Positions 2,896 through 60,668 are shown, counted from the stretch's first letter. The stretch: 64,000 bases of DNA from an uncultured Candidatus Saccharibacteria bacterium (GCA_964401135.1 CAYNXC010000002.1:16457-80456), one strand, 5' to 3'. The notes: generated by a model from the letters alone, not told the origin. A program made the numbers and translations.

Positions 2896-5463
<2,568 letters not shown>

Positions 5464-7784: not shown

Positions 7785-7859
<75 letters not shown>

Positions 7860-7944
7860 CGATGAAAAACGCCAATACTACATTGGCGTTTTTCTGTTTT
7901 TATGGCACTATGGGAGTCGTCAGGAGAGAGATAGAAAATGTCTT

Positions 7945-8018
7945 GCCGGGGTAGCTCAGTCGGTTAGAGCGTGGGACTCATAAACCCAAGGTCGTGAGTT
8001 CGATTCTCACCCCCGGCA
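7945..8018 (+). tRNA. tRNA-Met or tRNA-Ile2 (anticodon CAT, elongator type).
   Basis: Acceptor stem GCCGGGG/CCCCGGC and anticodon loop ACTCATAAA. The G1-C72 pair rules out an initiator. Confidence 0.75.
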
Positions 8019-8065
8019 CGAGGTTCCTGTATATTCTTTGAGCTTTTTGCTAGGATGATGTCGTT

Positions 8066-8142
8066 GCAGATGTAGCTCAACTGGTTAGAGCACCCGCCTG
8101 TCACGCGGGAGGTTGCGGGTTCAAGTCCCGTCGTCTGCGCCA
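8066..8142 (+). tRNA. tRNA-Asp (GTC).
   Basis: Near-identical to canonical bacterial tRNA-Asp. Anticodon loop CCTGTCACG, CCA encoded. Confidence 0.85.
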
Positions 8143-8223
8143 GTTCTTAATGTTTAAGGACAGCCCTAAAACATTCACCAGAGGCGAATGTTCGGGCGGA
8201 CAATTTCCATAGGAAACTGTTTT

Positions 8224-8296
8224 GCCGTTGTAGCTCAGTTGGTAGAGCAACTCCATGGTAAGGAGTAGGTCGTCGGTTCAATTCCGACCAACGGCT
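8224..8296 (+). tRNA. tRNA-Thr (GGT).
   Basis: Acceptor GCCGTTG/CAACGGC, anticodon stem ACTCC/GGAGT and loop ATGGTAA. Confidence 0.8.
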
Positions 8297-8308
8297 CATA
8301 ACAATAAG

Positions 8309-8381
8309 GCCACCTTAGCTCAGTTGGCAGAGCGGCGCATTCGTAACGCGCAGGTCCCCAGTCCGATTCTGGGAGGTGGCT
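8309..8381 (+). tRNA. tRNA-Thr (CGT).
   Basis: Anticodon arm GCGCATTCGTAACGCGC resembles E. coli thrW. T-arm is CCCAG/CTGGG. Confidence 0.75.
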
Positions 8382-32503: not shown

Positions 32504-32588
32504 GGAGGGGTCGCATAGAGGCCTAGTGCGCGCGCTTGGAAAGCGCGTAAGGGTTACACCTTCGAGGGTTCGAATCCCTCCCTCTCCG
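32504..32588 (+). tRNA. tRNA-Ser (GGA), class II with a long variable arm.
   Basis: Acceptor GGAGGGG/CCTCTCC, anticodon stem CGCGC/GCGCG, loop TTGGAAA, variable hairpin AAGG-GTTACA-CCTT and T-arm GAGGG/CCCTC. Confidence 0.8.
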
Positions 32589-32666
32589 CACTAAGAACCT
32601 GGTAGTTTTGTGACCCAAGTACCTAAGGTTGTAGGGCGACCCAGGTACCTAGTAATTACCTGGAAA

Positions 32667-33911
32667 ATGCCCGACGAATATCGCAATCATCATTACGTAC
32701 CACAGTGGTACCAAAAGAAGTTCATGCTACCGAACGAGCATGAGTTATTTCACTTGGATTTAAAACCCGAGACGTTCACCGATCCTCGCGGCGTGGTTCA
32801 TACCAAGAAGCCATTACGGCGACAAGGTAGTAAAAAGTGTTTCGTCCAAGAGGATCTTTATACGACGAAGATTCAAGGTATCGAAACAAAGGATATAGAG
32901 AAATATTTCTTCGGCGATATTGATACCAAAGGTCGTCCTGCTGTCGAATATTTCGAGGGGTTTGATTATCCCCTTAAACCCTGGGGTGAATCACTTCAGG
33001 ACATCATGCGTTACATGAGTACACAGAAGCTCAGGACTCCGAAAGGTCTATCATTTCTTAGCGAGAAAATTGGAAGTAAGGATAAGGACGCGATTCTACG
33101 CAATATGATCCGAGTGCGTAATGTTCATGCCGCTATTTGGATGGAATGCGTCTGGCTTATTGCAGACGCTTCACAGTCGGAGACTAAATTCATCATCTCA
33201 GACCATCCCGTTACTGTTTATAATCGTGAATGCGGTCCTCGATCCAGTTACTGTCGAGACTCAAATGACCCCGAGATATGGCTTCAAGGTACGCATACAA
33301 TTTTTCCACTTTCCATAGATAAGGTTCTCATTCTCACAAATTTATCCTGGGTGCGGAATCCATATCAATCCGCAACCAATCTACGACCGAATCCAAATCC
33401 ATACCGCAATGCGATATTCAAATTTACTGACGTTCAGGTTCGACGACAATTAAGTGAACAAGAGGTACGAGAAATCAATTTCATCATAAAAAGCCGAGCT
33501 TCCCGATATGTAGCCGCAGCCAAAGAAGAATGGCTTTACCCAGAAAGACATGTATCCAAATCAGATTGGAACAAATACGGTCATGGATATCTTTTGATGC
33601 CCGATCCTCGCGCTATTCATTGGGGAGGAACCATAATGTGGGGCGGTGGCCCAGGCGGTCCAGGTGCAATGGATGAATATGGAAGACTGCCCGGAGATCC
33701 TGATTTTGAAGCAGAGACAACCAAAGGTAAGGAGTACCAAACGCTCCCTTGGTTTCAGGGAGAATTTGCAAAGCTGTTCGGTCCTTATCGCCGAGGCCGT
33801 TGTATGCAACATATTGAAATTGAAAAGGAACGGGACGATGATGAATTTCACCAGTACCATCTCGGTCTTCAGAAAAAGAGCTATAAGGAACGACACGGCA
33901 AGAAGAAATAG
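32667..33911 (+). CDS. DUF4238 family protein (HHYVPQ and SDHPV motifs). Cargo of the tRNA-Ser-adjacent island.
   Basis: The N-terminal RNHHYVPQWYQKKF and the central KFIISDHPVTV match the two hallmark motifs of DUF4238. The track ORF starts at 32610, but 32667 (MPDEY) is more plausible. Confidence 0.55.
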   Translation: MPDEYRNHHYVPQWYQKKFMLPNEHELFHLDLKPETFTDPRGVVHTKKPLRRQGSKKCFVQEDLYTTKIQGIETKDIEKYFFGDIDTKGRPAVEYFEGFDYPLKPWGESLQDIMRYMSTQKLRTPKGLSFLSEKIGSKDKDAILRNMIRVRNVHAAIWMECVWLIADASQSETKFIISDHPVTVYNRECGPRSSYCRDSNDPEIWLQGTHTIFPLSIDKVLILTNLSWVRNPYQSATNLRPNPNPYRNAIFKFTDVQVRRQLSEQEVREINFIIKSRASRYVAAAKEEWLYPERHVSKSDWNKYGHGYLLMPDPRAIHWGGTIMWGGGPGGPGAMDEYGRLPGDPDFEAETTKGKEYQTLPWFQGEFAKLFGPYRRGRCMQHIEIEKERDDDEFHQYHLGLQKKSYKERHGKKK

Positions 33912-33914
33912 TTT

Positions 33915-35225
33915 TTAGTTGGAGTCCTCTGTAAGCAGAGTAATCTTCTTATCGTTCAGCACCAATCTGCTTCTTAGATGACCCATCAGTTCACGCTTCT
34001 CAAGCGGTGTACCCTCGCGGAGTACGTATTTTGCATATTCCTTTGTCGCAATATCGTCTTCATCGATCTGCATCTTGGGCTTGCCTTTGACCGCAAGTCT
34101 CTGCAATCTATTGAATCGCTTAATTTCTTCTTCGAGCTTCATCCGCATGCCAAGCTCGTTCATGGTGAGCTTGTCGATAATCTTGAATAGTTCCTCGACG
34201 AGTTCTTCCTCGCGGATATATTTGTTCTTGCAGTTCCTGTCTCTCGCTTTCGAGCAAGAGTAGTAGACGTACTTTGCATTCGTGCCATCTTTGAGCAGTT
34301 TGTATTTCTCCTGCGCCGTGATGCCCGATCCGCACATGCCACAGGTAAATAATTTGGTGAAGGCAAACTCTCTGTTCTCGCGCACAACTTTGTCGCGCTT
34401 CAATTGCTCCTGCACTTTCTTGAATAATTCCTCGCTGATTAGCGGCTCATGTGTTCCTTGATACCAGTTGCCGCTGTTCTTTGGATACTCGAATGGTCCG
34501 TAATAAATGGGCATCTGGAGCATGCGATATACACCAGAGAGTGTGAGTGGCTTGTTACCTCGCGTATAGAAGTTAAGCTCGAAACGGAGCCAGTTGTACA
34601 CTTTTCTACCGCTCCACAAATCGTATGCCACTTTTTCAAACATCTGCTTCACGATCGGTGCACGTTGCGGATCAATAACGATACGGCATTTCTTTTCTAT
34701 CAATTTCTGGTTGAGATATCCGAGCGGCGCCATGCCCGGCCACAACCCCATCTCCACTCTCGTTCTCAAACCTCGCTTCACGTTGATGCCCCGGTTGTCG
34801 TTCTCGAGCTTCGCCTGCGATCCAAGGATCATGAGGAGGAATTTTTCATTCGGATTATTAGTAAACTTTTGTCCGTAGGTGCGTATTTCCTTGAGCTTTC
34901 CAACGTCCATAAGATCGATCACTTTGCCGAGGTCGCCTGCGTTACGGCTGATGCGATCCGGCGCCCATGTGAGGATACCGTTGTATTTGTCATCCCTAAT
35001 TTCTTCGATGATCTCGTTAAATACAGGGCGCTGGCCAGTCTCCTTGGCGGAGTGAGATTCTCGCTTCATTGTCACAACTTCCAAATTTTCTCGCTCTGCT
35101 AGCTGGAGCATCTCCTTGATCTGGGAATCGATAGAAAGCGCCTGTCGTTCCTCCGCTTCGCTCGACTTGCGGGCATACAGGCAATATCTGATTGGTTTCT
35201 GTTCCTTTACGGTTGCGTTTTCCAT
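33915..35225 (-). CDS. Large serine recombinase (integrase).
   Basis: N-terminal resolvase catalytic domain (YARKSS catalytic Ser, DRISRN), a recombinase domain, and a Cys4 zinc ribbon (CGMCGS...CSKARDRNC) with a coiled-coil tail. 436 aa. Confidence 0.85.
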   Translation of the reverse strand: MENATVKEQKPIRYCLYARKSSEAEERQALSIDSQIKEMLQLAERENLEVVTMKRESHSAKETGQRPVFNEIIEEIRDDKYNGILTWAPDRISRNAGDLGKVIDLMDVGKLKEIRTYGQKFTNNPNEKFLLMILGSQAKLENDNRGINVKRGLRTRVEMGLWPGMAPLGYLNQKLIEKKCRIVIDPQRAPIVKQMFEKVAYDLWSGRKVYNWLRFELNFYTRGNKPLTLSGVYRMLQMPIYYGPFEYPKNSGNWYQGTHEPLISEELFKKVQEQLKRDKVVRENREFAFTKLFTCGMCGSGITAQEKYKLLKDGTNAKYVYYSCSKARDRNCKNKYIREEELVEELFKIIDKLTMNELGMRMKLEEEIKRFNRLQRLAVKGKPKMQIDEDDIATKEYAKYVLREGTPLEKRELMGHLRSRLVLNDKKITLLTEDSN

Positions 35226-35349
35226 GCATACACGAACATACCGGATACGGGTACGAAGTCTAGCCGCATACGAAACACAGAGCAGAAGCGGGAGGAAGTC
35301 AACTACACAAAAATCCCGAGGGAAGCTAAGGTCTTTTAGGGGGTGAGAA

Positions 35350-35562
35350 TTAAAAACTAATGAGATTGTTCACTTTAAGCCCTAGTGCTTTGGCGATCTT
35401 CTCCATGTTGGTGAGTGTAATGTTTTTCTCGGCACGTTCAATCATACCGATGTATGTCCTGTGGACTTTAGCCAACTGCCCTAAGCGCTCTTGAGAAATA
35501 TCGCGTTTCAGTCGTTCTTCTCGGACTCTTTTGCCAAATTGTATGAGAATAGTCTTGTTCAT
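35350..35562 (-). CDS. XRE-family HTH transcriptional regulator (cI/Cro-like repressor).
   Basis: 70 aa with the HTH_3 motif (SQERLGQLAKVHRTYIGMIERAEKNITLTNMEKIAKAL). Confidence 0.8.
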   Translation of the reverse strand: MNKTILIQFGKRVREERLKRDISQERLGQLAKVHRTYIGMIERAEKNITLTNMEKIAKALGLKVNNLISF

Positions 35563-35661: not shown

Positions 35662-35681
35662 TAAAATTGAGAACAATATTC

Positions 35682-36521
35682 ATGAATAAAATCTTTAAAA
35701 GACTACTCGTATTTGCGGTACTATTTGCTCTTACTTCTTCGAATGTTTTTGCTGCAACTAAAACCTGGGACTTTTCCACTTCGTCGGACTACACTTTTGA
35801 TACTACTAAAATTGAAGTCATAGGAGGACAAGCACAATTGAAAGCTACAACAACTCCTGCTTGGTATGACACCAGTTGGAAATATAGAAAGAAAATATCA
35901 ATTGACCATACAAAAATATCGTCAGATTTAACAGATTTTCCTGTTCTCGTTAATCAAACTTCTGACTCAGACTTGGCAGCCAAAGCGTTAACGTCAGGTA
36001 ACGATATATTTTTCACTTCATCTGATGGAGTTACAAAACTAAGCCACGAAATAGAGACATATGCATCAACAACAGGAGCTTTAGCTGCATGGATTAAAGT
36101 TCCTACAGTATCCTCTTCTGTAGATACTGATGTTTATATGTATTATGGTAATGCTGCAGCTTCTGCTCAAGCGAATGCAAATGGAGTATGGGATAGTAAT
36201 TCAATTGTTGTTCAACATCTTAATGCTACTACTAGCCCAGCACTAGACTCAACATCTAATGCGAATAGTGGAGTTCAGTCTGGAGGAGTTACTTTCAGTG
36301 CAACAGGCAAGATAGGTAATGCTGTGAGCATGGACGGTGTTAATGACAAACTATCCTTAACAAGTAATAGTGGCTTAAACGCAACAGGCACCCTAAGTAT
36401 TAGTGCATGGGTAAATAGAACTGCATCGGGCAAGATGAGGGTAGTTGCAAAAACAGTTACTACTGGAACAACTGACAACCCATATGATTTTGGTATAAAT
36501 ACGGATAATACACTTTATTTA
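35682..36521 (+). pseudogene. 5' fragment (about 280 codons) of a large secreted DUF2341/LamG-like surface-protein gene, interrupted by IS insertion.
   Basis: Signal peptide MNKIFKRLLVFAVLFALTSSNVFAA, a DUF2341-like WKYRKKISIDHTKISSDLTDFPVLV, and a LamG-like region. The frame runs into the IS left inverted repeat and stops 9 codons later. Confidence 0.75.
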
Positions 36522-36551
36522 AGGGAACTATATACAATGTTACCCTAAAAA

Positions 36552-37085
36552 TTAATTAGATTTTGGTTTGTCTAAATCTTCCAAAGAAAAGCCCAGGTCA
36601 GGAAAAATAAGATTTCTTAGATAAATACTCCCTGCAAAAAGAACGGTATTAATATCAACTCCAGACTGGAAAGCCCCTTGTTTGAGTGATTCTACAACAT
36701 CAGGACAATGTATTGGTAACTCCATCATTATCTCGGATATTACTTTCTCTGCATCATAAGGATTAGTCGTATTTTTACTTTGAACTAATTTTAGAAGTTC
36801 GTCTTTTTTTGCGTCAATAATTTCTTTAATTCCGCTATCATCTAAGATAGCTTGCCCTCTTGAGTTTAATTGTCGTGGAGAATTAGCAGGTGCAATTTTG
36901 TCTTTCCATAGAATATCCAGTTTAGGGAACATATCTGCCACTTTGGGTTTAATGTCTTTAATATCTTCCAGCATAAAATTTGTTCTTTCATCAATCCTCG
37001 CAATCAATTCACGAGTATTACCCAACAGGATAGCAGAAATCCAGTTACCTGCTTTTTTGGCTAAATTAAGGGCTTGTTGTTCCAT
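36552..37085 (-). CDS. Hypothetical 177-aa passenger protein of the IS element, function unknown.
   Basis: Intact ORF between IRL and the transposase gene, on the opposite strand. No motif recognised. Confidence 0.5.
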   Translation of the reverse strand: MEQQALNLAKKAGNWISAILLGNTRELIARIDERTNFMLEDIKDIKPKVADMFPKLDILWKDKIAPANSPRQLNSRGQAILDDSGIKEIIDAKKDELLKLVQSKNTTNPYDAEKVISEIMMELPIHCPDVVESLKQGAFQSGVDINTVLFAGSIYLRNLIFPDLGFSLEDLDKPKSN

Positions 37086-37197
37086 AGGATTATTACATTA
37101 CTAGTATATCAAAACGGCTGTTGCAAGTTAATACTAGTCAAAAAGTTACCCCCAATTATTACTTGACAACCCTATTGTGATCGTATAAGCTATAGGT

Positions 37198-38115
37198 ATG
37201 GATAGCCGATACAAAACCTTGGTAGAGTTCCTCGCCCACTTTAAGGATGAGGAAACCTGTCAAAAATACTTTGAGCAAATCCGCTTCTCCCAAGGCGAGT
37301 ATTGCCCTCATTGTAACCACAGTAAAATCAACCGCTTTTCAGACGGCAAACGCTTTCGCTGTGCTAAGTGCAAAAAGGACTTCACTATTAAGACCAAGAC
37401 CGTCTTTGGCGAAAGCAAAATCTCAATGCAGAAATGGTTTGTCGCAATTTACCTTTTGTCCGTCAATAAGAAAGGCATTAGCTCTATTAACCTAGCCGAG
37501 CAAGTGGGCGTTACTCAAAAGACCGCGTGGTTTATGGATCATCGTATTCGTAAAGCCTTGAAACAAAATAGCGGTCAGTTGTTTGGCACAGTAGAAATAG
37601 ACGAAACCTATATCGGCGGCAAGGAAAAGAACAAGCACGCCCACAAGCGAACCAAGCGCACCCAAGGCCGAAACACTTTGACCAAAACCCCTGTAATGGG
37701 AATGATACAGCGAGGCGGTGCAATGAAAGCCAAAGTGATAGATAATGTAAAGATGCGAACCTTGGAAAGTCTGATTATTGAAAATGTAAAAATTGGGACA
37801 CAGCTCTACACAGACGAGTTTTTGTCTTACTCCAAAATCGGCAGTCTCTTTGCTCACGAGGCCGTGTCACACGGCAAAGGCCAGTATGTAAAAGGTGATA
37901 GCCACTCCAACACCGCCGAGAGTTTTTGGGCATTGTTTAAGCGTGGCTACTACGGCACTTACCACAACATGAGTAAGAAGCATTTGCAGAAGTATGTGGA
38001 CGAGTTCGTGTATCGCTTTAACAACCGAGCCGTGGAGCTAGCCGATGTATTCACTGATGTCGTGGCGAATGTAGCGGGTAGCGAGAAGCTGGCTTATAAG
38101 ACTCTTACCGCTTAA
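37198..38115 (+). CDS. IS1595-family DDE transposase.
   Basis: N-terminal zinc ribbon (CPHCNHSKI...FRCAKCKKDF), VEIDETYIGGKEKNKH, SNTAESFWALFKRGYYGTYH and YVDEFVYRFNNR blocks characteristic of IS1595/ISXO2-like transposases. Confidence 0.85.
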   Translation: MDSRYKTLVEFLAHFKDEETCQKYFEQIRFSQGEYCPHCNHSKINRFSDGKRFRCAKCKKDFTIKTKTVFGESKISMQKWFVAIYLLSVNKKGISSINLAEQVGVTQKTAWFMDHRIRKALKQNSGQLFGTVEIDETYIGGKEKNKHAHKRTKRTQGRNTLTKTPVMGMIQRGGAMKAKVIDNVKMRTLESLIIENVKIGTQLYTDEFLSYSKIGSLFAHEAVSHGKGQYVKGDSHSNTAESFWALFKRGYYGTYHNMSKKHLQKYVDEFVYRFNNRAVELADVFTDVVANVAGSEKLAYKTLTA

Positions 38116-38116
38116 T

Positions 38117-39025
38117 ATGTCCCCACGAGAACGCAAATATCACGAGGGGTTAGGGGTAGACTTTAATCAAGCTCTTGTCTCTATTGCTGGTGAGAACCGA
38201 ACCGAGCGGAGTATCGCCGCCCGACCATTTCTAAAGTGGGTCGGTGGCAAGCGGTCAATCCTGCCAGAGCTTCTAAAGCGGTTGCCGACCAAGTATGACG
38301 CTTACCATGAGCTGTTTCTAGGCGGTGGTGCGTTGTACTTCGCCGTCCAGCCAGAGGAGGCTTATCTGTCTGATGTAAACTTCCACCTCATCCTTACTTT
38401 CAAGGCGGTGCGAGATGATCTGGACAGCTTAATCCGTCAGTTAAAAATCCACGAACGATTACACAACAAGGAATACTATCTCAAAGCTCGCCAGAAGCTC
38501 TTTAAGGAAAAGGACACCACCAAACTGGCGGCTCTCTTTATCTACCTCAATAAAACTTGCTTCAATGGTCTTTACCGAGTAAACAAGGGGGGTGGCTTCA
38601 ATGTCCCGATGGGCGACTACAAAGACCCAAACATTTTAGACGAGGAAAATCTGCGTAATGCTTCAAAGGTTTTAGCGACCGCCGAGATTAAACAGCACGG
38701 CTTTGAGCATACCAAAATCTACAAAGGCGACTTCTACTATCTTGACCCGCCCTATCACGAAACCTATAGCGGTTATGATGGCTCTGGCTTTGGCGATGAA
38801 CACCACCGCAAGCTCGCCGAGTTCTGCAAACAGATAGACCAAAAGGGCAGTTACTTTATGCTCTCCAACAGCGACACGCCATTTGTCAGAGAGTTATATA
38901 AGGGCTATACTATTGAGCAAGTAGAGGCTTCACGAAATGTCTCTTGCAAAGCCCACCAGCGAGGCAAAGAAAATGAGCTTATCATCCGAAACTACACCAA
39001 TAACGGGGGGCGGACAAGCCAATAA
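38117..39025 (+). CDS. Dam-family N6-adenine DNA methyltransferase (alpha class).
   Basis: FLKWVGGKRSILPELL (SAM-binding motif I) and YYLDPPY (motif IV). About 300 aa. Confidence 0.85.
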   Translation: MSPRERKYHEGLGVDFNQALVSIAGENRTERSIAARPFLKWVGGKRSILPELLKRLPTKYDAYHELFLGGGALYFAVQPEEAYLSDVNFHLILTFKAVRDDLDSLIRQLKIHERLHNKEYYLKARQKLFKEKDTTKLAALFIYLNKTCFNGLYRVNKGGGFNVPMGDYKDPNILDEENLRNASKVLATAEIKQHGFEHTKIYKGDFYYLDPPYHETYSGYDGSGFGDEHHRKLAEFCKQIDQKGSYFMLSNSDTPFVRELYKGYTIEQVEASRNVSCKAHQRGKENELIIRNYTNNGGRTSQ

Positions 39026-39473
39026 AACGGGCAGTGTTTTAGAGCTATTTATCAAGCGACTTTTAGAGGACAACGGCTACACCGCCTTTCCTAACCACAA
39101 AGCCCAGCTATTCGCCAATCGTAAAACTGTCGGTGGTAAGCAATACTCTACCCAAGTTCCTTGTGGTACGAGTATCTACGAAACCCAGCGTAAATGCGAC
39201 TTCTTGATCATGAACCAAGACAAGTTCCCCGATGGACTGGTGATTGAGTGCAAGTGGCAACAGTCTACTGGCTCGGTAGACGAGAAGTACCCTTTTACCT
39301 TGTTTAACATCATCAAGATCGGCGTGCCAACCATCATTCTGCTGGACGGCAACGGCTACAAAAAGGCGGCGATGAAGTGGTTAAAAGACCAAGTGAACCC
39401 ACAGAGAGCCTTAATCGGCGTTTACAATATGGCCGAGTTTCAAGCTATGGTAAATAAGGGGTTTTTAGGTTAG
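38937..39473 (+). CDS. Short PD-(D/E)XK nuclease, the putative restriction endonuclease partner of the Dam methylase.
   Basis: CDFLIM...GLVIECKWQ gives a D...ExK core. It overlaps the 3' end of the methylase gene (possible true start M13 at 38973), and its stop is inside the IRR. Confidence 0.55.
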   Translation: MSLAKPTSEAKKMSLSSETTPITGGGQANKTGSVLELFIKRLLEDNGYTAFPNHKAQLFANRKTVGGKQYSTQVPCGTSIYETQRKCDFLIMNQDKFPDGLVIECKWQQSTGSVDEKYPFTLFNIIKIGVPTIILLDGNGYKKAAMKWLKDQVNPQRALIGVYNMAEFQAMVNKGFLG

Positions 39474-39490
39474 GGTAACTTTGTATATAA

Positions 39491-42190
39491 TTCCCTTATT
39501 TAAATCGTGCAGATTCAAGTGTTGTAAATTTTCTATCAAGTTCAACAACTGTACCGACAAATTCATGGACAAAAATTGAAGTAATTGATGACACTGTCGT
39601 TAAAAGTGCTTTCAACAGCGTCTCAAAATTAGTCACCCTAGCGACATCTACAAGAGCGTGGCAGGGGGTAGCAAGTGATGGGACTTATATCTATGCAATT
39701 GGACAAAATGCTATTTCGCAGTTTGATATGCAAGGTAATTTTATAAAAGAAAAGAATAATGTATACAGTGGTTTTACTGGTGGCAACATCCTAGGTAATG
39801 GAACAGTAATTAATGGAAAGTTATATGTCGGGGCATATAATGCGAATACTTTAGGAGCGTCAACAAATCCTAATTACACTCCGTTATCAGATCTTCAATC
39901 AAAAATTGCTGTCTTTAGCCTATCTGATTTTTCATTAATTGAAGATTTTAACCTTGGTACTCAAGTAAAAATTGCTGAGGGTGTTGATTATCACAATGGT
40001 TACTTTTGGGTAGTTGATGGATGGTTTGATACTTTCGTCGTAAAAAAATACGATACTAGTTTTAATTTAGTCTCTACGTATAGCTTGCCTGTAGCAAATG
40101 CTTTCGCTGGAGAATTAACATACCAAAATATTAATTGGTATGGGAATGACATTTTTGTTAATTGGCATGGCTCAAATTCTTTTGGACAAACCTATGCTTA
40201 TGGGTTGGATCATTATTCTTTTGACGGAACAAATTTTAATTTTGTAGAACGATTAAGACCAGTAACATATGGTGCAGGTCAAGGTATTGCAATTGTCGGA
40301 AATACGTTTTATTGGGCAGATAGACCTGGAAATGCGATCTACAAATCAACATATGTTGGAGCTGGAAATGGTGATGATGGTATTGATCCATCACATACAA
40401 AATTTTTCATAAATGGAGTTGGTGAGCTTGCTCATGTAAGTACTGGCTCTCTCACTGTGCTTTCACCTACAAGTAATACCAGTCCAACGGTTATTGGAAC
40501 TAGGGGCGATTCAAGTAGTTTTTATAAAGGTGTCATAGATGAAGTTCGAATTTCAAATGCGGCAAGATCAGATGCATGGGTCTCGGCAAGTTACGCCAAT
40601 GAAAACTCACCAAGTACATTCTATTCGATGGGTTCGGAACAAAAAAATTATGCAGCTACTAACCCGACTGTTAATCCCACATCATTAAATGCGCAAGCCT
40701 TCTCATCCCTGTCAGGCTTTTCAGCAGTTGAAGTAAGTAATGGAGGAAATATAAAGTATCAAGTTTCAAATGATGGAGGAACCACATGGTATTGGTACAA
40801 CTCTGGCTGGAATACAACAACTTCAGGATACTCTGAGACAAATGCATCTTCAACTATAAATACAAATATCGCTTCTTTACCTGTAGGAAGTGGATCATAC
40901 TTATTTAAAGCATATTTAAATTCTGATGGAACGCAGCAACCTCAGATAGACAGTGTGGTGCTCACATACTCTGCGCCACTTGATATTACAGCTCCTATTA
41001 TATCTGCGATAGCGTCTTCTACATCCCAAACTTCAGCAACTATTACCTGGACGACCGATGAATCAGCCACATCAACGGTAAATTATGGTCTTAACACTTC
41101 ATACGGTACAGCGTCATCCTCATCATCTCTCGTTACCTCTCATTCGATATCCTTGTCAGGATTAACCGCATCAACCGCATACCATTTCCAAGTAGCATCA
41201 GCTGACGCTTCTGGAAACGTTGCAACTTCTTCAGACTATACATTCACCACAACAGCAGTGCCTGACACAACGCCTCCGGTCATTTCATCAATTTCTTCCG
41301 GTTCACTTTCAACTTCAGGAACAACTATAACTTGGACCACTGATGAAGCTGCGGATTCCCAAGTTAACTACGGCACAAGTGCCTCATATGGATCACAGAC
41401 GACCCTTGATTCAACACTAGTGACGAGTCACTCCATTGTAATTTCAGGTCTTTCTGCAGGAACGACGTATCACTACCAAGTAGTGTCAAAAGATGCTTCT
41501 GGAAACACAGCTACATCTTCTGACCAAACCTTTACCACTTCAGCACAGCCTTCGAGCGGGGGTTCATCAAGCGGATCATATTCCGGAGGAGGCTCAATCC
41601 TTATCCAACCTTCTGTGCCGGGCTGTCCTACAGGATTCAATTGTGTAGTAAATCCAACCCCTACCATTTTACCAAATACTTTTACTCGTGATCTCACCAT
41701 AAAAAGTACTGGTAGTGATGTGAAGGTATTGCAGCAGTTCCTGATCGCTAAAGGCTTTCTTGCGAGCGGCAATGACACGGGATACTTTGGTCCTCTGACG
41801 CAAGCTGCTCTCGCGCAATACCAGCTTTCGATGGGTATTAAACCATCGGTTGGATATTTCGGCTCACTTACTCGTGCAGTCATTGCTGTCTCGCAGAACA
41901 TATCACCTACTACTCCATCAATATCAACAAATCCGACGGTACTTCCAAGCACGTTTACTCGAGATCTGTATTTCGGCATGAGTGGAGACGATGTAAAACT
42001 CTTGCAAAAGTTCCTTAATGACCATCAATTTATAGTCAGCCAAACTGGCGCAGGATCTCCAGGACTTGAATCAAATTATTTCGGCCCAGCCACCCGAGAC
42101 GCCCTTATTCGTTTTCAGACTTACAATCACATAGTCCCTGCAGTAGGGTATTTTGGTTCGCTTACACGCCAATTCGTAAATGGTCAGTAG
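39491..42190 (+). pseudogene. 3' portion (about 896 codons) of the IS-interrupted surface-protein gene, with two FN3-like domains and two peptidoglycan-binding (PG_binding_1-like) domains.
   Basis: The frame is open from 39491, immediately after the IRR. ITWTTDESATSTVNYG...AYHFQVASADASGN occurs twice (FN3/PAP-N-like), and GSDVKVLQQFL...YFGPLTQAAL occurs twice (PG-binding). The track ORF starts at an internal ATG, 39728. Confidence 0.75.
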
Positions 42191-42233: not shown

Positions 42234-42596
42234 TTACTTACGTTCGTCCTCAGGCCATGGCTTTGGGCCGAACATCTCGTCGATCTTCTTGATCTCGTCT
42301 TCTGTAAGTTCGCGCTTCGGAGGCCGTTCCGGTACTGGGTCTCCTTTGTACTTCGGCGGCTTTCCGTCCATATGCTCCCAGATGAGCTTGATCATCCGAT
42401 GATCGCCGTCCAGTGCCATCCTTATGATTTTCTCAACCAACGCATCTGCAATAGTCTTGTCTTTATCACTCACAATCCTTTTACTGAGTATCTCTTGGAA
42501 TTGGCTCGTTAGTGTTTTGCCCGGAGGCCTTCCGTTCAAGTTTCTTCTCGGGTCGAATCCGCTTTGGAATGGCTTGAGGTTATTGATGTTGCCCAT
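42234..42596 (-). CDS. Small basic protein with an N-terminal LKPFQSGFDPRRNLNGRP motif (DUF5681-like / AT-hook-like). Tandem paralogue 1.
   Basis: Start placed at MGNINNLKPF by alignment with the neighbouring paralogue. Confidence 0.5.
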   Translation of the reverse strand: MGNINNLKPFQSGFDPRRNLNGRPPGKTLTSQFQEILSKRIVSDKDKTIADALVEKIIRMALDGDHRMIKLIWEHMDGKPPKYKGDPVPERPPKRELTEDEIKKIDEMFGPKPWPEDERK

Positions 42597-42945
42597 GGTC
42601 GTTTCGTTTAAAATACTTCTCAAAATCCGCCTGTTCTTCGGGCGTGTACTCGACCTTTTCTTGCGGTACAAATGGGGTAGGTACCACAAACTCGTCAGGC
42701 ACCTTGCCGTCCACTTGGTCGATGACCATACTCATGGCTTTCAGGTTGCCCTTGGCCGCCTTCCACACAAGCTGCATTACGATAGCCTTATCCTTCCGTG
42801 CCATCTTGCCGTTGAAGTAGACTTTCTCCTTCAATATTTCCATAATCACGGTTCTCACATTCCGAGAACCCTTCGGTCTACCCTTGGTATTCCTTCTTGG
42901 ATCGTACCCTGATTGAAAGGGCTTCAATGTTTTTATATTTCCCAT
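42580..42945 (-). CDS. Small basic protein with an N-terminal LKPFQSGYDPRRNTKGRPKGSRN motif. Tandem paralogue 2.
   Basis: Start placed at MGNIKTLKPF. The shared N-terminal motif and the central helical block align with paralogue 1. Overlaps paralogue 1 by 17 bp. Confidence 0.5.
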   Translation of the reverse strand: MGNIKTLKPFQSGYDPRRNTKGRPKGSRNVRTVIMEILKEKVYFNGKMARKDKAIVMQLVWKAAKGNLKAMSMVIDQVDGKVPDEFVVPTPFVPQEKVEYTPEEQADFEKYFKRNDHGQHQ

Positions 42946-43252
42946 ATCTGGTATTTTACCGGCTTTTTTGTTTGTAAAGGGGTGCATTACTTTCTCGCAG
43001 TTATTTTCACAGATAAAAGGGTGAAAAACGGCTTCTTTTAAGCCTTCGATTTTTCCCGTAATTTCACAGTATTTACGGGTATTTTGACCCCGACCCACAA
43101 ACCTCCTTCGGCTTCCCGAAAAAGTGCTAGAATACCCTTACGACACCTAATCATATGGGTACCGTACCCATAGCCCCCGCAAATTGAAACTTCCTGTTCC
43201 GAAAGCCGAATTGACCGTTGCATGAATAGTATTATCGTCCTAATATATATAC

Positions 43253-57262: not shown

Positions 57263-57486
57263 GTTAGTATATAATGGCCTCAATGTCTATAGGGTATCAA
57301 CTAATGTTCAAACGGCGATGAGCTAGAGGGATATGTCTGGTGCTCGAGAGCCGCTTGAACGAAGCGGATTTTTTTACCCCAGCGACAGAAGACTTTCTTT
57401 GAAAACTGAATAGCAGGTAACATCTGTAAAGAGAATTAGAATTGTAAGAGAAAGATGATGTAAAGATTTCCTAATAGGAAATGGCG

Positions 57487-60468
<2,982 letters not shown>

Positions 60469-60530
60469 TCCTATTAGGAAACCTCTACATCATTTATCGT
60501 TCTCTTCACTCTGATCTTCTGTATTTTGTT

Positions 60531-60628
60531 CTGGTGGTTTGGTGGAGGGGTCACACCCGGCTCCATTCCGAACCCGGCAGTTAAGCCCTCTAGCGCCGAT
60601 GATACTCGTAAGGGGAAAGTAGGTGACC
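60531..60628 (+). rRNA. rrf: 5S ribosomal RNA.
   Basis: Helix I CTGGTGG/CCGCCAG, and CCATTCCGAACCCGGCAGTTAAGCCC conserved loop C/helix III sequence. Confidence 0.85.
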
Positions 60629-60668
60629 GCCAGAACAAAGTTCAGAAGATCTGCTATACTTATATAAT

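What the first reader, a model, noticed from the sequence alone, without database searches (positions are those of the whole stretch)
36552..37085. An unknown 177-aa passenger gene rides on the IS next to an R-M module and is a candidate novel accessory function
This is an intact ORF on the opposite strand, between the left inverted repeat and the transposase gene. I recognise no family motif in it (MEQQALNLAKKAGNWISAILLGNTRELIARIDERTNFMLEDIKDIKPKVADMFPKL...). Genes hitch-hiking with R-M modules on mobile elements are often controllers, anti-restriction factors, toxins or other defence-related genes.
Basis: inference. Interest (0 to 1): 0.6.

Follow-up and report, generated by a model that had tools for sequence, protein, structure and literature searches.

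The report
Unknown cargo gene on a transposon
The 177-codon gene is real and travels inside an insertion sequence, but it is an independently captured cargo from a large uncharacterised protein family of tiny "candidate phyla" bacteria, not a part of the restriction system beside it, and its function is still unknown.

Summary
ORF177 (36552-37085, minus strand) is intact. It lies 3 nt inside the left inverted repeat of a 2,973-bp IS1595-family element (36523-39495) with a perfect 8-bp target duplication. Removing the element restores one 1,180-aa surface-protein gene.

The protein matches nothing in Pfam, NCBIfam, PHROGs, PADLOC or the PDB, by sequence or by fold. It is still a true family member. 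About 1,300 clusters at 50% identity exist, nearly all from Patescibacteria. The architecture is an N-terminal membrane or amphipathic helix, a coiled coil, and a confidently modelled ~110-aa all-helical domain.

The link to the R-M module is not supported:
- About 25 other contexts of the family lack any Dam methylase, nuclease or transposase nearby.
- 15 sister elements carry the same R-M with an empty slot where ORF177 sits.

The family does recur as cargo. Four IS copies carry four different subfamilies, and three of them have complete ends with perfect target duplications. One phage carries a copy as a lone gene. Other cargo of this IS lineage is rich in defence genes.

My best guess, at about 0.35, is a stand-alone exclusion or defence-type accessory protein. 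A resident cell-physiology gene captured as cargo is nearly as likely. Interest is moderate.

The parts
36515..36522 (.). Left copy of the 8-bp target-site duplication (TTATTTAA)
   Evidence: Identical to 39496-39503.
36523..36548 (+). Left terminal inverted repeat (IRL), GGGAACTATATACAATGTTACCCTAA
   Evidence: The 35-nt repeat pair reported by the tool (arms 36514-36548 and 39470-39504, which include the target duplication) is 89% complementary. The first 23 nt of the IR (36523-36545) differ from the right end at 2 positions. The same IR consensus ends 60 or more related elements.
36552..37085 (-). ORF177, the passenger gene. A member of an uncharacterised family with an N-terminal long helix or coiled coil and a C-terminal ~110-aa all-helical domain.
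   Evidence: GC is 0.348, against 0.455-0.482 for the rest of the element.
37103..37131 (-). Promoter-like site upstream of ORF177 (TTAACT-17-TATACT, with TG)
   Evidence: Consensus scan only. The number of such sites in the region is no higher than in shuffled sequence, so this is weak evidence.
37161..37189 (+). Conserved promoter-like block upstream of the transposase gene (CTTGACAnCCCTnnnnTGATCnTAT)
   Evidence: Invariant columns across 8 aligned elements, with or without cargo. It marks the inner edge of the upstream cargo slot.
37198..38115 (+). IS1595-family transposase (Zn ribbon plus DDE_Tnp_IS1595)
   Evidence: Pfam 9e-44 and 6e-11; NCBIfam transpos_IS1595 6e-59.
38117..39025 (+). 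Dam-family N6-adenine DNA methyltransferase (downstream cargo)
   Evidence: Pfam MethyltransfD12 6e-60; TIGR00571 3e-85.
38937..39473 (+). PD-(D/E)XK restriction nuclease (PDDEXK_11, weakly DpnII-like). The true start may be later than 38937.
   Evidence: Pfam 3e-38; weak DpnII 5e-4.
39470..39495 (-). Right terminal inverted repeat (IRR)
39496..39503 (.). Right copy of the target-site duplication (TTATTTAA)
35667..36522 (+). 5' part of the disrupted host gene (DUF2341 / LamG-type surface protein)
39504..42190 (+). 3' part of the disrupted host gene (Laminin_G_3, fn3, PG_binding_1)
   Evidence: Joining this to 35667-36522 gives one 1,180-aa ORF.

Best explanation
ORF177 is a genuine, self-contained cargo gene of a 'transporter IS' of the IS1595 family. 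It occupies a variable slot between the left inverted repeat and the transposase promoter, and it is transcribed divergently from the transposase gene. In sister elements this slot is empty or holds unrelated genes.

The gene was not inherited with the R-M module. It was taken from a large family of Patescibacteria proteins (about 1,300 clusters at 50% identity) that normally sit as single genes in the chromosome.

The protein is built from three parts: an N-terminal membrane anchor, a coiled-coil stalk of variable length, and a compact, conserved, acidic ~110-aa all-helical domain of unmatched fold. The anchor is a true transmembrane helix in about two thirds of members. In the window's subfamily it is a short hydrophobic, possibly amphipathic, helix. 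The positive-inside rule places the helical domain in the cytoplasm.

Shown: gene reality, cargo status, independence from the R-M, repeated capture by the IS lineage, and one phage-borne copy.

Inferred: it acts alone, without a dedicated partner, at or near the inner face of the membrane. Its most likely role is a host-beneficial accessory trait of the exclusion or abortive-infection type, like a prophage 'moron'. That would explain why mobile elements keep picking it up. The confidence given is for this functional inference. Cargo status itself is about 0.9.
For: Boundaries and mobility:
- Inverted repeats, a perfect 8-bp duplication and restoration of the host ORF define the element.
- Sister elements carrying family members have the same IRs. 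L011 has a 72%-identical transposase in the same head-to-head layout, with the IR 13 nt after the stop codon.
- L098 carries a copy in the upstream slot and L080 in the downstream slot, both with perfect target duplications.

Independent captures:
- The four IS-borne copies are each closer to non-IS members than to each other. The window copy is 68-69% identical to P0002-P0010 but 61% to the L011 copy. The L011 copy is 71% identical to P0045. The L080 copy is 47% identical to P0232. The L098 copy is 34% identical to P0117.
- ORF177 GC is 0.348, against about 0.46 for the element core.

Slot variability: 15 R-M elements have an empty upstream slot and 10 have it filled with other genes.

Company it keeps. 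Other cargo of the lineage includes:
- an EcoRI-like nuclease with an N6 methylase;
- a STAND/AAA_22 NTPase (PADLOC PDC-S59);
- DUF5343 (PADLOC PDC-M34A, 1.7e-14);
- Schlafen/AlbA_2 with HATPase_c_4;
- DUF3800 and DUF5655;
- a protein with a weak match to the PADLOC DUF3644 model (7.7e-5), which I read as HEPN-like from an R-x4-H motif.

Phage copy: Megaira phage OP381185.1 encodes a member (hhalign probability 98.8%). It is a lone plus-strand gene between the exo/bet block and a regulator.

Architecture: model pLDDT is 84-86. 173 of 267 members have a transmembrane-like N-terminus. No conserved neighbour was found in about 25 contexts.
Against: - There is no homology to any known defence protein (PADLOC, PHROGs).
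- Only one phage among 50,697 records carries a member, no plasmid does, and two IMG/VR scans found nothing.
- Most members lie between housekeeping genes such as YebC/RuvC, RecA, ThrRS/LepA, SecA/Obg, ClpB, FtsH and RNase J.
- Where synteny is conserved, the gene diverges at about the same rate as its neighbours: 92.5% against 68-95% in one pair, and 68% against 66-92% in another. That looks like a stable cellular function and not an arms-race gene.
- The window's own protein lacks a true transmembrane helix.
- The 'defence-rich cargo' argument is guilt by association, and many cargo genes of the lineage are themselves unknown.
Confidence: 0.35

Rival explanations
1. ORF177 is an extra copy of a resident Patescibacteria physiology gene, a membrane-tethered cytoplasmic coiled-coil protein. 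Candidate roles are DNA transactions, cell division or envelope homeostasis. The IS picked it up as neutral or dosage-beneficial cargo with no role in defence.
For: - The overwhelming majority of members are chromosomal, single-copy per locus, and sit among housekeeping genes.
- Synteny is conserved down to 68% protein identity, with divergence similar to that of neighbours.
- Recombination and repair genes recur nearby: RuvC, RecA plus SSB, RecG plus an EndoIII-like gene, an SNF2 helicase, and UDG plus PolX, in about 5 of about 22 contexts.
- The N-terminal anchor, stalk and cytoplasmic globular domain resemble ZipA or EzrA-type tethers. This last point is my own knowledge, not a test.
Against: - Four IS-borne copies from four subfamilies, among roughly 30 distinct cargo-bearing elements, are far more than random capture of one gene family out of about 1,000 would give.
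- One copy sits in a phage as an isolated gene.
- Some chromosomal copies sit beside mobile or toxin-antitoxin genes: MazF, HepT/DUF433, a DUF5906 primase-like gene and an LPD38 polyvalent protein.
- The gene is consistently lower in GC than its flanks, by a mean of 5 points in 18 loci.
- The repair-gene enrichment is modest and was diluted as more contexts were added.
Confidence: 0.3
2. ORF177 is an accessory factor of the neighbouring R-M module, such as a controller that delays restriction, an anti-restriction or DNA-mimic protein, or a specificity or targeting subunit.
For: - It is physically adjacent on the same mobile element.
- The C-terminal domain is mildly acidic, pI 4.75.
Against: - 15 R-M-bearing sister elements have no gene in this slot, and 9 others carry different genes there.
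- None of 42 other loci with a family member encodes the methylase or nuclease.
- The L080 and L098 elements carry the family without this R-M.
- There is no HTH, ArdA or Ocr family match.
- Most family members are membrane-anchored, which is unlike known C proteins or DNA mimics.
Confidence: 0.05
3. ORF177 is an IS-encoded helper or regulator of transposition, expressed divergently from the transposase promoter. It might act as an inhibitor, a target-choice factor or a membrane tether for the transpososome.
For: - Three IS copies show the same head-to-head arrangement with the transposase gene and a 78-130-nt intergenic region.
- The cargo abuts the IR within 3-13 nt.
Against: - 76 of 80 related transposase loci lack it, yet they transposed with perfect duplications.
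- In L080 it sits in the other slot and in the other orientation.
- The family is mostly found far from any transposase.
Confidence: 0.07

Closest known systems
Transporter insertion sequences (tIS) of the IS1595 family, i.e. IS with passenger genes (concept: Siguier, Gagnevin & Chandler 2009, as cited in PMC7986276 and PMC9330008)
   Same: - A single DDE transposase with the IS1595 Zn ribbon and DDE_Tnp_IS1595 domain.
- Short terminal inverted repeats that begin GG.
- An 8-bp target duplication.
- Non-transposition genes carried inside the IRs.
   Different: - This lineage has two cargo slots with a rich, interchangeable repertoire. The repertoire includes two kinds of R-M, a STAND NTPase, a Schlafen-like gene, DUF3800, DUF5343 and many small membrane proteins.
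- It lives in Patescibacteria.
- ORF177's family has not been described as IS cargo or in any other role. I could not consult ISfinder, so whether this exact element is registered is unknown.
Transposon-like mobile R-M units flanked by inverted repeats with 8-bp duplications (Furuta, Abe & Kobayashi 2010, PMC2853133)
   Same: A type II R-M gene pair lies inside imperfect terminal inverted repeats and was inserted with an 8-bp target duplication. Sometimes a transposase-like gene and a hypothetical gene are also present.
   Different: Here the transposase is intact and clearly IS1595-type. The extra gene, ORF177, is shown not to be part of the R-M unit but a separately exchangeable cargo.
Prophage 'moron' or superinfection-exclusion membrane proteins (e.g. 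lambda/P22 SieB, RexB). This comparison rests on my own knowledge, not on a test.
   Same: - Small size, about 180 aa.
- An N-terminal membrane helix in most members.
- It acts as a single gene and is carried by mobile elements.
- In phage OP381185.1 it is an independently oriented gene between the recombination block and a regulator.
   Different: - There is no sequence or fold similarity to any of them.
- The window's protein lacks a full transmembrane helix.
- Most members are stable chromosomal genes, and no phenotype is known.
RecX (RecA regulator)
   Different: - No Pfam RecX match.
- No PDB sequence match to the RecX structures.
- hhalign probability of 0.5% against a RecX sequence that I recalled from memory and did not verify.
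- Only 57 residues align structurally.
- RecX has no membrane anchor or coiled coil.

Membership tests
tIS (passenger-carrying IS) of the IS1595 family: is ORF177 a passenger of one? | Transposase with the IS1595 Zn ribbon and DDE_Tnp_IS1595 domain | tested here: met
   PF12762 9e-44, PF12760 6e-11, NF033547 6e-59.
tIS (passenger-carrying IS) of the IS1595 family: is ORF177 a passenger of one? | Terminal inverted repeats and an 8-bp target-site duplication that enclose the gene | tested here: met
   IRs at 36523-36548 and 39470-39495; TSD TTATTTAA on both sides; excision restores a 1,180-aa ORF.
tIS (passenger-carrying IS) of the IS1595 family: is ORF177 a passenger of one? | The passenger moves with the element, i.e. 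other copies carry a homologue inside their IRs | tested here: met
   L080 and L098 have family members inside IRs with perfect 8-bp duplications. L011 has the same layout with the IR after the stop codon, but the contig is cut in the transposase gene. No second identical copy of this exact element was found.
R-M controller (C) protein | Small XRE/HTH_3-type DNA-binding protein | tested here: not met
   No HTH family hit at E<=0.1. The model shows a 63-residue helix plus a 7-helix domain.
R-M controller (C) protein | Co-inherited with its R-M genes | tested here: not met
   15 sister R-M elements lack it. 42 other family loci lack the R-M.
Anti-restriction DNA mimics (Ocr, ArdA) | Sequence or fold match, and a strongly acidic DNA-like surface | tested here: not met
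Known anti-phage defence proteins (PADLOC-DB 2.0) | HMM match to a catalogued defence protein | tested here: not met
   No hit for ORF177 or the L080 copy at E<=1 and E<=0.01 respectively.
Abortive-infection / superinfection-exclusion single-gene modules (functional class) | Blocks phage infection when expressed | not testable with these tools
   This needs phage challenge assays.
Abortive-infection / superinfection-exclusion single-gene modules (functional class) | Carried as an autonomous gene by prophages or other mobile elements, often membrane-anchored | tested here: inconclusive
   One phage and four tIS copies carry it, and 65% of members have a TM-like helix. But most members are stable chromosomal genes, and the window's protein has no full TM helix.
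RecX | RecX family sequence signature or three 3-helix repeats | tested here: not met
Type II toxin-antitoxin pair | A conserved adjacent partner gene | tested here: not met
   No recurrent neighbour in about 25 contexts. The unknown neighbours are unrelated to each other and to the family.

The most novel reading that the evidence does not exclude
The ORF177 family is a previously unrecognised single-gene, membrane-proximal exclusion or abortive-infection system with a new helical fold. It would be widespread in Patescibacteria and would spread horizontally as interchangeable cargo of an IS1595-type transporter IS, and occasionally as a phage moron. If so, this IS lineage would be a compact shuttle for defence genes in organisms with about 1-Mb genomes.
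Probability: 0.3. Interest if true: 0.7.

Novelty: new variant of a known kind. Interest (0 to 1): 0.45.

Why it matters
Candidate-phyla-radiation (Patescibacteria) bacteria have tiny genomes full of unannotated genes, and little is known about how they exchange accessory traits. This locus shows an active IS1595-type element with two cargo slots. It shuttles R-M systems, other defence-like genes and an uncharacterised protein family of about 1,300 clusters with no fold match in the PDB (the AlphaFold database could not be searched here).

The same family has been picked up at least three or four separate times, and once by a phage. That marks it as a gene with selectable value on transfer, so it is a reasonable target for functional work. 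It also corrects an easy mis-annotation: the gene is not an R-M accessory. If the function turns out to be housekeeping, the finding reduces to an ordinary passenger gene.

Tried and rejected
3. A decayed inner IRL next to the cargo, which would indicate capture through a surrogate end. MAFFT suggested one, but local alignment against shuffles was not significant for the window or 23 other elements.
4. IR remnants or flanking repeats around chromosomal family members, which would indicate fossil IS insertions or cassettes. None was found.
5. A conserved partner gene. None was found, and the unknown neighbours are unrelated.
6. Domain fusions or source annotations among distant members. None exist: all are 'hypothetical' with no Pfam domains beyond coiled-coil noise.
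7. IMG/VR viral contigs (two scans) and PLSDB plasmids gave no relatives.
8. Foldseek against the PDB gave nothing with E<1.
9. The afdb50 library was unavailable.
11. An att repeat for the tRNA-Ser-adjacent element was not found.

Full report
**1. Observation**

It lies between a 26-nt terminal inverted repeat (36523-36548) and an oppositely oriented transposase gene (37198-38115). That gene carries the IS1595 zinc ribbon and the DDE_Tnp_IS1595 domain (Pfam 6e-11 and 9e-44; NCBIfam transpos_IS1595 6e-59).

Downstream of the transposase gene come a Dam-family methyltransferase (38117-39025; TIGR00571 3e-85) and a PD-(D/E)XK nuclease (38937-39473; PDDEXK_11 3e-38). The right inverted repeat follows at 39470-39495. 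Identical 8-bp direct repeats (TTATTTAA) flank the 2,973-bp element. Removing the element and one repeat copy fuses 35667-36522 with 39504-42190 into a single 1,180-codon ORF, a DUF2341/LamG/fn3/PG-binding surface protein.

**2. The protein**

ORF177 has no match in Pfam, NCBIfam, PHROGs or PADLOC. A family profile finds no relative among PDB sequences; the best hits have E>=0.013 and are coiled-coil noise.

It is nonetheless a conserved gene:
- 138 homologues at E<=1e-3 in the word-indexed search, with 45-69% identity and lengths of about 160-230 aa.
- 1,307 representative clusters at 50% identity in the exhaustive profile scan, 479 of them at E<=1e-10.
- Where a source names these proteins, they are 'hypothetical protein' from Paceibacterota, Saccharimonadales, Parcubacteria and other Patescibacteria MAGs.

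AlphaFold2 with the family alignment gives a long N-terminal helix (residues 2-64) and a compact seven-helix domain (75-172) with pLDDT above 90. The whole model has pLDDT 83.6 and the domain-only model 86.3.

Residues invariant in the alignment of 55 close homologues lie in the C-terminal domain or at its N-terminal edge: L59, S69, R71, G77, L81, S84, Y110, D111, E113, K135, G142, G152 and R157. Only S69, P70 and G77 stay invariant when distant members are added.

In 173 of 267 members the N-terminus is a transmembrane-like helix, followed by Lys/Arg. By the positive-inside rule this puts the conserved domain in the cytoplasm (my inference). The window's subfamily instead has a conserved 'KKVGNWxSAILLGNTRELIARIDERT' segment with only a short hydrophobic run. 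The stalk between the anchor and the domain varies in length.

**3. Where the family normally lives**

I examined about 25 distinct genomic contexts. Almost all are chromosomal and non-mobile:
- YebC-X-RuvC
- RecA-X, with SSB nearby
- RecG|X|EndoIII-like
- SNF2 helicase-X, with HepT/DUF433 nearby
- dCMP deaminase..X..UDG..PolX
- ThrRS|X-LepA
- SecA-orf-X-Obg
- ClpB-orf-X-DeoR
- FtsH-X
- RNase J-X
- MscL-X
- GrpB-X
- ABC-3-X|FTR1
- pilin-X-DacA

A few contexts are mobile-looking: MazF-X, X-DUF5906 (primase-like) and X|LPD38.

No neighbour recurs, and the unknown neighbours are unrelated to each other. None of the 42 loci contains a homologue of the window's methylase or nuclease. Only one, L011, contains the transposase. 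No IS inverted repeat lies near the chromosomal copies.

Where synteny is shared between lineages, the gene diverges about as fast as its neighbours. In one pair it is 92.5% identical against 68-95% for neighbours. In another it is 68% identical against 92% for ClpB and 66% for the DeoR-type neighbour. The gene is lower in GC than its flanks in all 18 loci tested, by a mean of 5 points.

**4. The IS lineage and its cargo**

A metagenome scan with the transposase returned 80 loci at 50-87% identity. The IR consensus (GGGAACTATATAC..TACCC) is found at their ends, and 12 of 15 elements checked have perfect 8-bp target duplications. Element sizes range from 2.4 to 3.8 kb.

The commonest form is IR-transposase-Dam methylase-nuclease-IR. 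Among R-M-bearing copies with a visible left end, 15 have only 69-127 bp between the IRL and the transposase gene, which is an empty slot. Ten, including the window, have 438-1,232 bp filled with genes that are divergent from the transposase gene.

An alignment shows that the cargo sits between the IRL and a conserved block that ends in an invariant promoter-like motif upstream of the transposase gene.

Cargo across the lineage is diverse:
- an EcoRI-like nuclease plus an N6 methylase;
- an nSTAND1/AAA_22 NTPase (PADLOC PDC-S59, 7e-8);
- DUF5343 (PADLOC PDC-M34A, 1.7e-14; six loci);
- SLFN/AlbA_2 with HATPase_c_4;
- DUF3800 and DUF5655;
- a protein with a weak match to the PADLOC DUF3644 model, which I read as HEPN-like from an R-x4-H motif;
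- a Cys-rich family;
- many small membrane or unknown proteins.

So the identifiable cargo is dominated by defence or candidate-defence genes.

**5. ORF177-family genes as recurrent cargo**

Besides the window, three elements carry family members:
- L011: 72%-identical transposase, the same head-to-head layout, and the IR 13 nt after the stop codon.
- L098: upstream slot, divergent orientation (E 2.7e-7 to the family profile).
- L080: downstream slot, same strand as the transposase gene (E 2.5e-19). L080 and L098 both have perfect duplications.

Each IS-borne copy is closer to non-IS members than to the other IS-borne copies. The window copy is 68-69% identical to P0002-P0010 and 61% to the L011 copy. 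The L011 copy is 71% identical to P0045. The L080 copy is 47% identical to P0232. The L098 copy is 34% identical to P0117. This implies at least three or four separate exchanges between chromosome and IS.

In the window the gene's GC (0.348) is far below that of the element core (0.455-0.482) and of the window as a whole (0.477). That fits a late, foreign acquisition.

One phage record of 50,697 encodes a clear member (tblastn 4e-11; hhalign probability 98.8%). It is Megaira phage MAnkyphage OP381185.1. The gene is a lone plus-strand gene flanked by minus-strand genes, between the exonuclease/Bet block and a regulator. Plasmids and IMG/VR gave nothing.

**6. What it most likely is and does**

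Shown:
- The gene is real.
- It is cargo of a transporter IS.
- It is not linked to the R-M.
- It has no dedicated partner.
- Mobile elements have acquired it repeatedly.

Inferred:
- It is a self-sufficient protein working at or near the inner face of the membrane. It probably forms an oligomer through its coiled coil and uses the conserved polar patch of the helical domain to bind a ligand or partner.
- Repeated capture by an element that otherwise carries defence genes, plus a moron-like position in a phage, points to an exclusion or abortive-infection type accessory function. I put this at about 0.35.
- The main rival, at about 0.30, is a resident physiological protein captured as neutral or dosage-beneficial cargo. 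It could be a membrane tether in DNA transactions or division. The stable, housekeeping-like chromosomal behaviour and the modest excess of recombination and repair neighbours support it.
- An R-M accessory role (about 0.05) is contradicted by the co-occurrence data.
- A transposition helper (about 0.07) is contradicted by its absence from 76 of 80 related elements.

**7. Comparison with what is known**

Passenger-carrying IS ('tIS') are an established category, and the IS1595 family is the classic case (Siguier et al. 2009, as cited in PMC7986276; tIS defined in PMC9330008). Transposon-like R-M units with inverted repeats and 8-bp duplications have been described (PMC2853133). All defining features of a tIS passenger that I could test are met.

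What is not described, as far as these tools can show:
- the two-slot modular organisation of this Patescibacteria lineage;
- the ORF177 family itself;
- its recurrent capture.

Membership in C proteins, anti-restriction mimics, catalogued defence families, RecX or toxin-antitoxin pairs was tested and not met.

**8. Verdict**

This is a confirmed passenger gene of unknown function from a large, unannotated family with no structural match in the PDB. It is a new variant of a known kind, a tIS with exchangeable cargo. Interest is moderate (0.45).

Noticed in passing
window 36523-39495; loci L031-L110: The IS1595-type lineage is a modular shuttle with two cargo slots: upstream, between the IRL and the transposase promoter, where the likeliest cargo ORFs run divergent from the transposase gene; and downstream, between the transposase gene and the IRR. 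Elements are 2.4-3.8 kb, and 12 of 15 checked have perfect 8-bp duplications. The commonest downstream cargo is the Dam methylase plus PDDEXK_11 nuclease pair. How cargo is exchanged is unexplained, since no inner IR relic was found.
   Followed up: partly
L047:154-450, L064:743-1123, L066:84-476, L067:4095-4415 (all minus strand): A Cys-rich 98-130-aa cargo family (repeated RHKCCxCA / RHQCAICAYHEGF motifs, no Pfam hit) occurs in the upstream slot of four different elements, all of them R-M-bearing. It is a better candidate for an R-M-linked factor than ORF177.
   Followed up: no
window 37161-37189: A block upstream of the transposase gene (CTTGACAnCCCTnnnnTGATCnTAT) is invariant across elements that share only 65-87% transposase identity with the window's. 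It is probably the transposase promoter or operator, and it marks the inner edge of the cargo slot.
   Followed up: partly
window 32504-35562 and 42234-43098: A tRNA-Ser(gga) is followed directly by a DUF4238 gene, a large serine recombinase and an XRE-type HTH gene. On the far side of the disrupted surface-protein gene lie two overlapping DUF5681 ORFs. This may be an integrated element or island, but no att-like direct repeat was found.
   Followed up: partly
window 35667-36522 + 39504-42190: The IS interrupts a 1,180-aa DUF2341/LamG/fn3/peptidoglycan-binding surface protein, whose GC (about 0.40) is also below the window average (0.477). The insertion looks recent, with perfect target duplications and an intact reading frame on excision.
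   Followed up: yes
L123 (phage OP381185.1) 7923-8459: A Caudoviricetes phage assigned to the alphaproteobacterial endosymbiont Megaira carries a family member. The family is therefore not strictly confined to Patescibacteria. It is the only hit among 50,697 phage records.
   Followed up: partly
L117:4626-4686 and 4757-4817: A pair of 61-nt direct repeats (82% identical) lies just downstream of a chromosomal family member. Its significance is unknown.
   Followed up: no
L041:3475-3540: This element has two IRL-like copies 43 bp apart at its left end.
   Followed up: no
window 38937-39025: As called from the first start codon, the nuclease ORF overlaps the end of the methylase gene by 89 nt. 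The Pfam match begins at residue 27, so the real start is probably later.
   Followed up: no
window 57477-60635: A 23S rRNA gene and a 5S rRNA gene lie near the right end of the window, and a cluster of five tRNAs lies at 7785-8381. They could be used to place the organism taxonomically. I did not do this.
   Followed up: no
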